Positions 24,003 through 28,520 of a stretch of 64,000 nucleotides of DNA are shown here, piece by piece (positions within the stretch are counted from its first letter, which is position 1; every line of letters begins with the position of its first letter). The notes under the pieces are model-generated. The model was not told where the DNA came from, ran no database searches, and was given only the letters and a program-made list of their open reading frames with translations. The position numbers and the translations under genes are program-made. Source of the DNA: Octopus vulgaris (Eukaryota). The DNA lies in the NCBI GenBank assembly GCA_951406725.2, contig OX597816.1, positions 125,612,001-125,676,000 of the forward strand, read 5' to 3'.

Positions 24003-24095
24003 CTCCTTGGGCAATTGTTTTCTACTCTAGCCTCTGACCGACCAAAGCCTTGTGAGCAGATCTCTGGCAGACAGAAATTGGGAGAAGCATAGCGT
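24003..24095 (+). mobile_element. 5' part of SINE (family of 3873-4280), interrupted at its internal (TA)n
   Basis: ttgggcaa..tctact.tagcctc..ccgaccaaagccttgtgag matches 3950-4035. The 3' part resumes at 28383. Confidence 0.75.
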
Positions 24096-24325
24096 ATATG
24101 TACATATATATATATATATATATAACAATAATAAATCTCTGAACGAGATATAAATAGTAACCGCTCGACAACGTAAGGGGGTATTAGCCATCTGAATGTG
24201 GCTAGCCACTGGGGGGGGGGGGGTGTTACTGATGCTTTTAGCCCCAGGCGATCAACGTCACCAGAAGGACTTTAGATACTATCTCAGTGCCCTTGTGTTA
24301 TTTGCAAAGGGAGGTCATCCTCCCT

Positions 24326-24404
24326 CGAAGACCCGAGTACTACATACGGACTATAGTTTCAAGGTAATTGCCTCTCGTCAACGCATGGTAAGCACCGGTC
24401 TTCG
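24326..24404 (-). ncRNA. Type I hammerhead ribozyme (U3.G8 variant), unit 1
   Basis: Minus strand: cgaagacc.gtgct.catgcg TTGACGA gagg caatta cctt GAAAC tata GTC cgtatg.agtac.ggtcttcg. Three-segment stem I, 4-bp stem II, palindromic stem III, GUC site. Confidence 0.8.
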
Positions 24405-24677
24405 ATGAAGGAGTCCCCTTGCAAATAATATATAACGTTTTTCACAGTAACCACTGTCACTGATGTAGAAAAACTGTCTGAAAGCAATAATAAATCTCTG
24501 AACGAGATATAAACAGTAACCGCTCGACAACGTAAGGGGTATTAGCCATCTGAATGTGGCTAGCCACTGGGGGGGTGTTACTGATGCTTTTAGCCCCAGG
24601 CGATCAACGTCACCAGAAGGACTTTAGACACTATCTCAGTGCCCTTGTGTTATTTGCAAAGGGAGGTCATCCTCCCT

Positions 24678-24756
24678 CGAAGACCCGAGTACTACATACG
24701 GACTATAGTTTAAAGGTAATTGCCTCTCGTCAACGCATGGTAAGCACCGGTCTTCG
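24678..24756 (-). ncRNA. Hammerhead copy with G12->U core mutation, unit 2
   Basis: Same as unit 1 except GAAA->TAAA (position 24712). Confidence 0.7.
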
Positions 24757-25029
24757 ATGAAGGAGTCCCCGAGCAAATAATATATAACGTTTTTCACAGT
24801 AACCACTGTCACTGATGTAGAAAAACTGTCTGAAAACAATAATAAATCTCTGAACGAGATATAAACAGTAACCGCTCGACAACGTAAGGGGTATTAGCCA
24901 TCTGAATGTGGCTAGCCACTGGGGGGGTGTTACTGATGCTTTTAGCCCCAGGCGATCAACGTCACCAGAAGGACTTTAGACACTATCTCAGTGCCCTTGT
25001 GTTATTTGCAAAGGGAGGTCATCCTCCCT

Positions 25030-25108
25030 CGAAGACCCGAGTACTACATACGGACTATAGTTTAAAGGTAATTGCCTCTCGTCAACGCATGGTAAGCACC
25101 GGTCTTCG
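25030..25108 (-). ncRNA. Hammerhead copy with G12->U core mutation, unit 3
   Basis: Same as unit 2 (position 25064). Confidence 0.7.
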
Positions 25109-25207
25109 ATGAAGGAGTCCCCGAGCAAATAATATATAACGTTTTTCACAGTAACCACTGTCACTGATGTAGAAAAACTGTCTGAAAACAATAATAAATC
25201 TCTGAAC

Positions 25208-25415
25208 GGGCTAAAAGCATCAGTAACCCCCACCCCCAGTGGCTAGCCACATTCAGATGGCTAATACCCCTTACGTTGTCGAGCGGTTACTGTTTATATC
25301 TCGTTCAGAGATTTATTATTGTTTTCAGACAGTTTTTCTACATCAGTGACAGTGGTTACTGTGAAAAACGTTATATATTATTTGCAGGGAGACTCCTTCA
25401 TCGAAGACCGGTGCT
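25208..25415 (+). repeat. Inverted partial copy of the 352-bp monomer
   Basis: Reverse complement of agcaccggtc...tgaaa/acaataa...tagccc. It crosses the unit boundary and is fused directly to the LINE ORF2. Confidence 0.9.
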
Positions 25416-28382
25416 CTGTTGTGCCTTATACGGATCACAAACTTGTAACGTGTGAGGTACATGTAGATAAATGCCATAGACAAGGTCCCGGGTACTGGAA
25501 GATGAACAAGTCTATTTTGACCTGTGAAGCTTTCCGTACTCGGATTAAGGAATTAGTACAGAGGGCATTATGTGGCACCATCATTAATAATAGATAGTGG
25601 CTCGCCCTCAAAAGAGCCATCCGTTTGGAGTCCATTAGATTTAGCAAACAGCTAAGTTTAGATAGGACTAGAATAGAGGGCGAGTTATTTAAGAACTTAG
25701 ACGAGGCTATGGAATCTGGCTGTGCATCCGGAGTGTTGGCAGCGAGAGCGGTATTGTACCGTCACCTCAACGCCAAGCACGAGGGGTGTAGAGTCAGAGC
25801 TAAGTTACGTGCAGGAAAACGAGAAAGTATTAACGTTGCCGGATGGGCCCGTCGTGAGGAGAGTCAGAAGGGCAAAAAGTCCTGTATTATGTCCTCAACT
25901 GACGAACAGGACCGCAAGATCTATGGGCAGGAGGAGATGCAGAAAGTCCTTCACCAGCATTTCGCACGGCTGTTTGGGGACGGTGGTCCGCTCGAGCGTG
26001 GGGAGACCTTAAAGGACTTCCTAGCCGGTGGGCCTCGGCTCTCGGCAGGTGAGGCGGAGTGCTGTGAAGGATCGATCTCTCCCGCGGAGGTAAGAGGGGT
26101 TATGGCCGAGTGCGCCGGGGAAAAGTCGCCGGGATTGGATGGTCTACCCTATGAATTTTATTGTTGTATGCCGGACTTGTTCGGGGACATACTGGCAAGC
26201 GTCTATGCAAACTGGCAACAGAATGGGAGGATTCCCAGCTCTGTGAGTCGGGGAGTTGTGACGCTGGTCCAGAAAGACCCGAGCAAGGGGGACAGTATTA
26301 GTAATTACAGGCTCATAACTCTACTTAATGTAGAGTTTAAGATTTTGGCCAAGGTGTTGGCAAAAAGGTTGACGGCTGTCGTGGAGAAACTTGTCGGGAA
26401 GGCACAGACATGTGCAATCCCAGGCAGGTCGATCCAGGATAATCTTCACCTTCTCCGCTACACTATAGATAGGGTCGGGAAATTAGACGGCAAAGGAGGG
26501 GCATTGGTCCATTTAGACCAAAGTAAAGCGTTTGATAGGGTAGACCATCGGTACTTGGCGGCGGTTCTCGAAACGGCTGGGCTGGGCCCTGGCTTCTGCG
26601 GGTGGATCTCAGCTATGTACAGCGGCATCAAGTCCACAGTCCAGATAAATGGTTACCTAACGGAGCCGTTTTCGATCAAGCGTTCAGTCCGTCAAGGGTG
26701 CCCCTTGTCCCCGCTCCTGTATGTTTTGGCTCTTGAGCCATTGCTGCGGAAGCTGGAGAAGTTGAGAGGCAACCCTAATGAAATCGGATGCGGTAAGTCT
26801 GTTTCTGCCTATGCGGGTGACGTCACCCTCATCGTGTCCAACGGAACACAGCTACCTCGGGTAGTAGGTGCTCTCCATAGATACGAAGCGGTGGCAGGGG
26901 CAAAAGTTAACAGGGACAAGTCCATCGGTTTGCGCCTCGGCACCTGGAGGAACAAGCCGATATCGTCCAGTGTTGTTGGACACTGGACGGATGGTCCTGT
27001 TAAATTGCTCGGAGTCTGGTTTGGTCCAGACTCCCAGACGGAGAAGAATTGGAGCGAGGTAACGAGCAAGGTGGATGCCATAGTACGGAAGTGGTCCGGA
27101 AGGCATCTTTCCTTGAAAGGGAGGGCGGAGGTGGCACAGATGTTTATAGCCTCTGTAGTCACCTACTGCCTGACCGTCGTGCCTTGCCCCGATTCGTGGT
27201 TAAACAAGTTGGAACGACTCCTTTTCCGCTTTTTGTGGAAAGGAGGAAAGCCACTTGTGAGACGCTCCGTGTGTTGCCAGGAACCGCTAAAGGGTGGACT
27301 GGGGATGCCTTTGCTAATGATGCGCAAGCATGCGTTAAGGCTGAGACACCTCTGGTGTTACCTGGAGGATGATAAGGTGTGGAGTTCGCTGGCAGAGGAA
27401 TTCTTCCCGCGACCGGCTTCTATGGAGGAATTTACACCCGGTCTCATTAAAGGACGTAAACTGACTTCATGGCAGAAGGAGTGCCGACAGGCACTCTGGC
27501 TGATCCACAAGATGGGTAAGGCCGGCAGCGGGAATACCACCTCGGTGTTCTATAAAGGGCTGGTAAAGGGAAAAAATGACGACGTCCTAGGAAGGGCTCT
27601 GGGGTTCGATGAGGATCAACTCTCCAACCTGTTTAAGAAGACTTTCAGGTCGGGGTATTTGGATAATTACCAAAAATCCCTGACCTGGCAGTGCTATAGG
27701 AATGCATTACCTGTTCGCGAGAAGTTATCCAGGCACGGAATGTCAGTGCCACCGACGTGTCCAAGATGTGGGTTGGACGATGAAACCGTTCAACACGCTT
27801 TTGTACAATGTCGGGAGCTGTCAGGCTTGATAAGTTACGTGGAACACGTGTTGTCGCATCTGGGACGAGTACAGCTGTCGGCTGGATCTATGATTAAGAT
27901 GATACCGCCAACTGGACTCTCAAAGGAAGGTAAGGCTTGTTTTTACTGTACGGTGACAGTATTGAAAGAGTGTGTATGGAGAACTAGAGTGGAAGGTCTA
28001 GTGAAAGGGTCCTTTATCTCTGGCCCCGGTTTGTTAAAACACTTCGGATATCATCTGAAGAGCAAGATGGGGTTGGAGAAGAGGAGCATGCCACAGAAAG
28101 AGTATATGGAACGTTGGAAGGATGTGATGAGAAAGGAAAAATCAGCTGCTGGGATTTATAGGCTGCCGGGTTCAAAATTGAAACTGGTACCTCCCATTAC
28201 CTTTCACTGTACAAAGAAAAGAAAACATACGCACTAAAAGTTCTCGTGATAAAGGCAAAAGTAAACCAAGGTTTCGTTTCAAGGTAAAGTAAGCCAAGTT
28301 TTCGTTCAAGTTACATAAAATTTTATTTTTGTAATTTTTATAATTTCATTCGAACTCGCATAGCATTTTTGTAATTGTTTAT
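25416..28382 (+). mobile_element. Young 5'-truncated Tx1/L1-clade LINE: end of EN, RT, CCHC zinc finger, 3' UTR
   Basis: YTDHKLV, GPGYWKMN, KSPGLDGLP, DQSKAFDRV, VRQGCPLSP, YAGD (YADD mutated), CPRC..ETVQHAFVQC. 870-aa ORF at 25625-28237, with one in-frame stop at 25595-25597. Confidence 0.93.
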
Positions 28383-28520
28383 CTTAGCTGTTCGGCAAAA
28401 GTGTCCGATAGAATAAGAACTAGGCTTACAAAGAATAAGTCTCGGAGTCGATTTCTTCGACTAAAACCCTTCAAGGTGCTCCAGCATGGCCGTAGTCAAA
28501 CGACTGAAACAAGTAAAATA
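28383..28520 (+). mobile_element. 3' part of interrupted SINE
   Basis: cttagctgttcggcaaaag..gcttacaaagaataagt..gactgaaacaagtaa matches 4154-4280. Confidence 0.8.

What the first reader, a model, noticed from the sequence alone, without database searches (positions are those of the whole stretch)
24003..28520. Composite insertion inside a SINE: ribozyme array + inversion + Tx1 LINE without poly(A)
Seen: a SINE is split at its internal (TA)n and has lost its middle section. Between the halves lie the minus-sense array, a 208-bp plus-sense piece of the same monomer, and a direct fusion (accggtgct|ctgttgtg) into a plus-sense Tx1 ORF2 that ends without a poly(A) tail or visible TSD. Inference: one integration primed from both target ends, with a template switch between LINE mRNA and the ribozyme RNA. 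That would implicate either Tx1 RT in retrozyme mobilisation or PLE RT in capturing LINE mRNA.
Basis: partly seen in the sequence, partly recalled or inferred. Interest (0 to 1): 0.7.

Follow-up and report, generated by a model that had tools for sequence, protein, structure and literature searches.

The report
LINE nested in two-armed retrozyme insertion
A small repeat carrying a self-cutting-RNA motif sits as two back-to-back arms beside a truncated LINE retrotransposon inside a broken SINE, most likely because a Penelope-type element pasted the repeat in first, the LINE then likely jumped into it, and a later deletion probably removed the LINE's tail, although a single event that copied the LINE as a passenger is not excluded.

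Summary
The anatomy is real. A 352-bp unit with a type I hammerhead forms a 3.06-unit minus arm next to (TA)n and a 208-bp plus arm. The plus arm is fused to a decayed Tx1-type ORF2, between two SINE pieces.

Two corrections follow. First, the LINE is cut short: family contigs run on past 28380 in 4 of 4 runs (up to 202 nt), and the copy has two more deletions nearby. Second, array plus inversion needs no LINE: it is the Penelope footprint, and the same inversion junction recurs in a Helitron-like element 4 kb upstream.

The repeat-LINE junction lies 16 nt behind a TATA-predicted start, just ahead of the ribozyme; a U2-inserted relative has a 16-bp TSD. Best reading (0.47): retrozyme insertion, then targeted Tx1 insertion, then deletion.

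Against it: the LINE break, the left-arm end and the end of a second hammerhead-like array all carry ATTGTT (chance 0.2-3.4%). A single Penelope-type event carrying LINE RNA therefore keeps about 0.35. Tx1 RT as the mobiliser is unlikely. No allele or long-read test was possible.

The parts
23999..24116 (+). SINE left piece (profile positions 71-188; tRNA-like head missing), ending in its (TA)n
   Evidence: nhmmer with a profile of the window's copies at 3873-4285 and 48465-48870; alignment
24124..25208 (-). Long arm: 3.06 units of a 352-bp retrozyme-like repeat; RNA-sense 3' end at ATTGTT next to (TA)n; units 2 and 3 identical, unit 1 differs by 6 substitutions and 2 indels
24343..24387 (-). 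Type I hammerhead motif, unit 1: U3, intact G12-A13-A14, 6-bp stem I, 4-bp stem II, minimal palindromic stem III; predicted cut 5' of base 24348
   Evidence: descriptor and shuffle control; coordinates and dimer energy
24695..24739 (-). Hammerhead motif, unit 2, with U in place of G12 (predicted inactive)
25047..25091 (-). Hammerhead motif, unit 3, with U in place of G12 (predicted inactive)
25208..25415 (+). Short arm: unit positions 241-352 and 1-94, head-to-head with the long arm (1-nt overlap); stops 3 nt before hammerhead stem I
25371..25415 (+). The unit's only TATA-like box (25371-25379) and a predicted start at ATCG (25400); 25400-25415 is the candidate 16-bp upstream TSD (inferred)
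   Evidence: 16-bp TSD of a U2-inserted relative, L003
25416..28380 (+). Tx1-type LINE copy: 5'-truncated at the end of the endonuclease domain (about ORF2 residue 222), one stop at 25595-25597, catalytic motif reads YAGD, 3'-truncated inside the 3' UTR, two deletions against the family at 28130/28136 and 28213/28216
28374..28382 (+). LINE break: ATTGTT motif, one further T, then the dinucleotide AT before the SINE; at most 1 nt of microhomology to the SINE
28383..28520 (+). SINE right piece (profile positions 281-413)
   Evidence: SINE contigs continue upstream with the missing middle (table 7)

Best explanation
The locus holds two head-to-head arms of a hammerhead-bearing 352-bp repeat fused to a LINE copy that is truncated at both ends, and it most likely arose in three steps: a Penelope-type enzyme likely pasted the repeat into the SINE's (TA)n from both strands, a Tx1 LINE then probably inserted at the predicted transcription start of the short arm, and a deletion would later have removed the LINE tail, the rest of that arm and the SINE middle. 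Shown: the parts, the junctions, the 3' truncation, two further deletions, and a twin of the inversion junction in another element. Inferred: the enzyme, the start site, the targeting, the order of events and the final deletion. Units 2 and 3 are probably a later duplication (or an assembly duplication).
For: (1) The family runs on past 28380 with the same loose letters in 4 of 4 runs (13, 45, 49 and 202 nt), so the tail and downstream TSD are lost, not absent by design. One deletion accounts for four losses. (2) The copy has two other deletions within 250 nt of the break, one between short direct repeats. (3) The junction at 25415 is 16 nt behind the ATCG that lies 29 nt behind the unit's only TATA-like box, and 3 nt ahead of stem I. 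The four best metagenome relatives by E-value carry U2 sequence upstream of ORF2, and L003 has a 16-bp TSD. Tx1-clade elements often target other repeats (PMC4494074 passages). LINE and arm are co-oriented. (4) Tandem plus inverted arms in (TA)n are the Penelope pattern. The inversion junction has a twin in the Helitron-like element at 20803-21184: best match of 704 positions, falling exactly on the breakpoint. A LINE-free array sits between (TA)n tracts at 32612-34188. (5) Ages are compatible: array about 0.9% per copy (6 of 704), LINE 1.5% (10 of 684 in 5 low-mismatch pieces that I picked), Fisher p 0.32.
Against: ATTGTT lies within the last 10 nt of the left arm, of the second array and of the LINE copy. 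With the motif fixed from the two arrays, a random LINE break would carry it in 7 of 2956 positions (0.24%), 2 of 235 in the 3' region (0.85%), or 7 of 207 AT-rich positions (3.4%). The motif was noticed after the fact. The AT behind the break could be a remnant of (TA)n. Both small deletions falling in the last 250 nt has a chance of 0.7% if uniform. Targeting by this LINE family was not shown here: no second copy's flanks were seen, and the start site is predicted only from a TATA-like box. The relatives with U2 targets are only 30-36% identical.
Confidence: 0.47

Rival explanations
1. One Penelope-type insertion primed from both ends, whose right-hand cDNA copied a read-through RNA from a donor array that a Tx1 had already invaded. 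Synthesis started at (or jumped at once to) the ATTGTT in the LINE 3' UTR, skipped twice at short repeats, ran through the LINE and across the inherited junction into the unit. The SINE middle was lost at integration or by collapse of the (TA)n.
For: Shared ATTGTT at three ends; AT dinucleotide behind the break; deletions clustered at the would-be cDNA start; Penelope RT starts inside the RNA without homology to the DNA, extends both strands, and uses uncut RNA (PMC11167929); a PLE has moved a host gene in trans (PMC3846280).
Against: Penelope RT started at fixed sites in a bound, structured region of its own RNA. Both array ends have a hairpin just upstream; the LINE end folds weakly (-5.9 against -12.6 and -14.0 kcal/mol). 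It needs a second deletion that begins within 2 nt of the LINE end. The SINE pieces may be two copies (18 of 90 against 13 of 122 differences).
Confidence: 0.26
2. One reading: one event, with cDNA started on a LINE mRNA and a template switch onto retrozyme RNA at unit position 94.
For: Geometry fits (LINE and short arm co-oriented); ATTGTT at the break; ages compatible; snRNA-L1 chimeras by template switch are known (passage in PMC4494074).
Against: Position 94 is not an RNA end (the ribozyme cut follows position 136); it lies at TSD distance from the predicted start; a free LINE mRNA lacks the repeat's cis elements.
Confidence: 0.1
3. The LINE fragment was there first and the retrozyme inserted at a break whose right end was LINE DNA, so position 94 is simply an outer end of the short arm.
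For: A Penelope copy inserted in a non-LTR element without TSD is described (PMC3846280); the LINE looks slightly more diverged than the array (1.5% against 0.9%, not significant).
Against: The other visible RNA-sense array ends abut (TA)n and carry ATTGTT, and position 94 does neither; published tails are 30-40 nt, not 92; the LINE's 3' truncation still needs its own deletion.
Confidence: 0.07
4. Tx1 RT made the whole insert by twin priming and so mobilised the retrozyme RNA.
For: Head-to-head geometry also fits twin priming (recalled for L1); Cervera and de la Pena leave LINEs or PLEs open as mobilisers (PMC7229834 discussion).
Against: The LINE lacks its tail; the family does not continue into this SINE in the listed loose ends; a similar array lies in (TA)n with no LINE.
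Confidence: 0.04
5. One or more junctions are assembly errors.
For: Units 2 and 3 are identical (0 of 352; chance 0.25% at the unit 1/2 rate); homopolymer lengths vary between units; palindromes are hard to assemble.
Against: ORF2 keeps one frame over 2.7 kb; the inversion junction has an old twin in another element; the arms carry their own private changes.
Confidence: 0.04

Closest known systems
Animal non-LTR retrozymes (PMC7229834, passages and discussion read; bioRxiv 10.64898/2026.07.22.740005, parts 1-2 of 5 read)
   Same: Non-coding tandem unit of 352 bp (mussel 350-390 bp), one type I hammerhead per unit, few units per array
   Different: Core has U3; two of three units lack G12; inverted second arm; fused to a LINE; cleavage, expression and circles not tested
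Penelope-like element insertions (PMC3846280 and PMC8557442 passages; PMC11167929 parts 1-2 of 4)
   Same: Partial tandem plus inverted 5'-truncated arm, head-to-head; (TA)n target; minimal hammerhead
   Different: No ORF; the second outer end is replaced by a LINE; no 30-40-nt tail can be seen; partner PLE not identified
Target-specific Tx1-clade LINEs: Tx1L in Tx1D, Keno in U2, Tx1-Mar in Mariner-N4 (PMC4494074 passages)
   Same: RT plus zf-RVT, relatives with APE endonuclease; best metagenome relatives lie in U2 genes, one with a 16-bp TSD
   Different: The inferred target is a hammerhead repeat, which I did not find in the papers listed; only the upstream junction survives here
snRNA-L1 template-switch chimeras (passage in PMC4494074)
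   Same: Small-RNA sequence fused 5' of a truncated LINE in the same sense
   Different: Those are made by the LINE's own machinery; that they keep the LINE tail and TSDs is recalled. Here the tail is missing and the fusion point is inside the unit

Membership tests
Non-LTR retrozyme | Short non-coding tandem unit (about 170-400 nt) | tested here: met
   352-bp period; only ORFs of 81-92 aa listed over the array
Non-LTR retrozyme | Type I hammerhead in each unit | tested here: met
   3 of 3 units fit the descriptor when position 12 is free; 1 of 3 has G12; 0 of 2000 shuffles; no Rfam hit
Non-LTR retrozyme | 'Active' by Li et al.: two consecutive units with complete motifs | tested here: not met
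   Only unit 1 keeps G12; criterion read
Non-LTR retrozyme | Self-cleavage and circular or linear monomer RNA | not testable with these tools
   No listed holder on record as RNA; U3 variants occur in nature (PMC7151607 passage), activity here unknown
Penelope-type insertion | Partial tandem with inverted 5'-truncated arm, head-to-head | tested here: met
Penelope-type insertion | AT-rich or (TA)n target at both outer ends | tested here: inconclusive
   Met on the left; the right end is LINE, with only AT before the SINE
Penelope-type insertion | Two fixed RT start sites (tail) shared with an autonomous PLE | not testable with these tools
   No genome held
Tx1-clade LINE | APE endonuclease, RT and C-terminal zinc knuckle | tested here: met
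   RVT_1 and zf-RVT; last endonuclease motif aligns to relatives that carry PF03372
Tx1-clade LINE | Placement in the Tx1 clade on an RT tree with named references | not tested
   No named references at hand; indirect only: the top 4 of 80 loci carry U2 like Keno
Target-specific Tx1 family | Same target site and TSD in independent copies | tested here: inconclusive
   One upstream junction only; downstream junction lost; the 3' flanks of family copies were not visible
SINE-targeting LINE | Family 3' end joins the SINE at this site | tested here: not met
   Family contigs continue with non-SINE letters behind 28380 in 4 of 4 runs
HDV-like ribozyme | Nested double-pseudoknot descriptor | tested here: not met
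   0 hits with P1+P2 of 11 bp or more on either strand of a unit dimer

The most novel reading that the evidence does not exclude
A Penelope-type reverse transcriptase began cDNA inside a LINE's 3' UTR, at an AUUGUU site that mimics the start site of the ribozyme repeats it normally carries, and moved 3 kb of LINE as a 3' passenger in one doubly primed insertion. ATTGTT would then be a start signal shared by unrelated retrozyme families, and one retrotransposon class would be copying another's RNA.
Probability: 0.35. Interest if true: 0.65.

Novelty: new variant of a known kind. Interest (0 to 1): 0.38.

Why it matters
On the best reading it is a damaged example of nested parasitism: a LINE in a ribozyme repeat in a SINE. 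It adds one more candidate for a Tx1 family that uses retrozyme start sites as targets, a target class I did not find in the papers listed. Two by-products are testable: a candidate start motif (ATTGTT) at retrozyme ends, and an inversion junction that recurs at the same breakpoints in an old Helitron-like element, which says that inner junctions of these two-armed insertions can be stereotyped. On the rival reading it would be genomic evidence that Penelope RT mobilises retrozymes and can start on foreign RNA, a question that PMC7229834 leaves open.

Tried and rejected
No genome is held for this window, so junction counts and family consensus were not possible. Rfam gave no ribozyme. An HDV-like descriptor gave nothing, and my first hammerhead scan missed the motif because it ran on units 2-3 and required G12. 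Run search: no RNA holder listed; best share of words 0.53. At 5 of 40 listed sites all depth in all 4 runs carries another letter, so those contigs do not show this copy. That is no proof of absence, and no allele test came of it. No listed piece bridges 28380/28383 (32 of 1273 pieces shown). One search showed no loose ends for 25208 or 25415 (24 of 2932 rows shown), so microhomology at the fusion is unknown. Rejected: that 28137-28380 is a separate repeat; family contigs link it to the ORF2 end (tables 5c and 7). Rejected: that the Tx1 piece at 22850-23547 is the LINE's own 5' half; the overlap is 35 of 54 nt identical. Rejected: strand-biased deamination or CpG decay in the LINE; 2 of 39 listed sites are CpG, and 16 G-to-A against 8 C-to-T is not convincing. 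An exact 3' UTR pattern found 0 metagenome contigs; protein relatives there are only 25-43% identical; I scanned 20 of the 80 loci with Rfam. Look-ups of earlier findings by sequence found nothing. Supplements of the cited papers were not read and may hold cephalopod PLE or Tx1 target data.
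Full report
What is there. The window is from an octopus-like animal genome. This rests on earlier notes of the scan and on the best named relative of the ORF, an Argonauta protein at 57%; no genome is held. From left to right: a SINE piece ending in (TA)n (23999-24123), a 3.06-unit array of a 352-bp repeat on the minus strand (24124-25208), a 208-bp plus-strand piece of the same unit (25208-25415), a LINE copy (25416-28380), the letters AT, and a SINE piece (28383-28520). 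Against a profile from two whole SINE copies in the window, the pieces cover positions 71-188 and 281-413. They differ from those copies at 18 of 90 and 13 of 122 shared sites. That is compatible with one copy but does not show it, and the SINE head is gone, so no TSD can be checked.

The ribozyme. Rfam finds none and an HDV-like descriptor fails. A type I hammerhead descriptor fits once per unit on the minus strand: 6-bp stem I, core with U at position 3, 4-bp stem II, and a minimal palindromic stem III. None of 2000 shuffles gave an equal motif. Stem I extends into a long rod, and the stem III palindrome can pair between two molecules at -8.6 kcal/mol. Unit 1 keeps G12; units 2 and 3 have U there and are predicted dead. 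U3 variants occur naturally (PMC7151607 passage). Activity is untested. Size and layout match animal non-LTR retrozymes (PMC7229834; bioRxiv 10.64898/2026.07.22.740005). Units 2 and 3 are identical, unit 1 differs by 6 substitutions, and the short arm differs by 4 from each of the two array stretches it was compared with. The changes are mostly private. I read this as near-identical copies at insertion, about 1% of later change, and a later duplication of one unit.

The two arms need no LINE. Partial tandems with an inverted, 5'-truncated arm, head-to-head, often in (TA)n, are the Penelope pattern (PMC3846280; PMC8557442). A purified Penelope protein cuts and extends both strands and starts at two sites inside the RNA without homology to the DNA (PMC11167929). 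In this window a second young array (32612-34188, about 553-bp unit) with a hammerhead-like core lies between two (TA)n tracts with no LINE. It did not pass my strict descriptor; by my reading its first stem II pair is U-U and its proximal stem I is 4 bp. The inversion junction at 25208 has a twin inside a Helitron-like element at 20803-21184. The 30 nt left of the junction are the best match of 704 unit positions to the sequence left of the homologous segment there, and the alignment runs across the breakpoint. So the inner junction looks stereotyped. 'Helitron-like' rests on a TC start, a 3' hairpin and a CTAG end (criteria recalled).

The LINE. ORF2 has RVT_1 and zf-RVT, starts at about residue 222, has one stop and reads YAGD at the catalytic motif. 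Laying run contigs on 28000-28414 showed three things. First, 28131-28380 is the family's own 3' region: contigs there continue upstream with letters that a further contig links to the ORF2 end. Second, this copy lacks about 37 nt at 28130/28136, between short direct repeats, and about 40 nt at 28213/28216. Third, the family continues behind 28380 with the same non-SINE letters in 4 of 4 runs (5 contigs; loose parts of 13, 45, 49 and 202 nt). The missing poly(A) and TSD therefore follow from a 3' truncation, and the family does not join this SINE. From 5 low-mismatch pieces that I picked among the 64 listed, the copy differs from close relatives at 10 of 684 sites, not distinguishable from the array's 6 of 704 (p 0.32).

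The fusion at 25415. It follows unit position 94. Stem I starts at 98 and the predicted cut follows 136, so it is not a cleavage end. The unit's only TATA-like box starts at 50, and an ATCG, the same four letters that begin U2, lies at 79. The fusion is 16 nt behind it. The top four of 80 metagenome relatives by E-value (30-36% identity) carry U2 sequence upstream of ORF2 (20 loci scanned), and L003 has a 16-bp TSD. Tx1-clade elements often target other repeats (PMC4494074). Unchecked notes from this genome describe Tx1 families that insert just ahead of the ribozyme in such repeats; they prompted this test and are not support. No note matched this LINE or unit by sequence. I infer that the fusion is the upstream junction of a targeted, 5'-truncated insertion. 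This is not shown: the start site is predicted, and I saw no second copy's flanks.

The right end is the open point. One deletion from the LINE 3' UTR to the SINE explains the loss of the tail, the downstream TSD, the rest of the short arm and the SINE middle, and two smaller deletions lie beside it. Against this, ATTGTT lies in the last 10 nt of the long arm, of the second array and of the LINE copy. Each unit has the motif once and the LINE twice. The two arrays would share a 6-mer by chance in about 3% of AT-rich end pairs. With the motif fixed from them, a random LINE break carries it in 0.24% of positions, 0.85% in the 3' region and 3.4% of AT-rich positions. The motif was noticed after the fact. 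AT follows the break, as (TA)n follows the other two ends. This favours Penelope-type initiation on LINE-containing RNA, with the two deletions as early skips. That model needs initiation away from the enzyme's own cis element; the LINE end lacks the hairpin that precedes both array ends; and it needs another deletion starting within 2 nt of the LINE end. These are judgements, not computed values.

Novelty. Each part is of a known kind. A Tx1 target in a hammerhead repeat, or a PLE copying a LINE, did not appear in my searches: one search found 0 papers with all five terms, and searches listed none by title or abstract start (listings only). The library lacks most subscription journals and I read no supplements. 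The locus is a decayed single case, and the decisive tests need the genome.

Noticed in passing
window 20803-21184 (+): Helitron-like element (TC start, 3' hairpin, CTAG end) holding an about 80%-identical twin of the retrozyme's inversion junction, with the same breakpoints.
   Followed up: partly
window 32612-34188 (+): Very young tandem array, about 553-bp unit, 2.8 copies, 0-1 substitutions between units but 8 gap events per pair; hammerhead-like core at 32744, 33299 and 33852; both flanks (TA)n; 3' end carries ATTGTT.
   Followed up: partly
window 22850-23547 (+): Older Tx1-type ORF2 piece (residues 1-238, several stops) that ends almost where the downstream LINE begins (residue about 222); a different family (35 of 54 nt in the overlap). 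The near-complementary breakpoints are unexplained.
   Followed up: partly
window 24834-24840 and 24821-24825 (-) and equivalents: The unit's only runs of four or more T lie at the long arm's 3' end and 10 nt further on; they could be Pol III terminators.
   Followed up: no
window 57642-58673 (-): Another reverse-transcriptase fragment, about 20-22% identical to the Tx1 proteins; a different non-LTR clade.
   Followed up: no
L003 782-5947; L001, L002, L004: Keno-like elements in U2 genes in metagenome contigs; L003 has both junctions and a 16-bp TSD; L004 has a duplicated stretch of U2 upstream of the element.
   Followed up: partly
L006 5892-6010: 5S rRNA gene at the downstream end of a distant Tx1-like relative.
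   Followed up: no
window 3874-4284, 5066-5312, 34400-34705, 48466-48868: Further copies of the same SINE; two are whole and 91% identical.
   Followed up: yes
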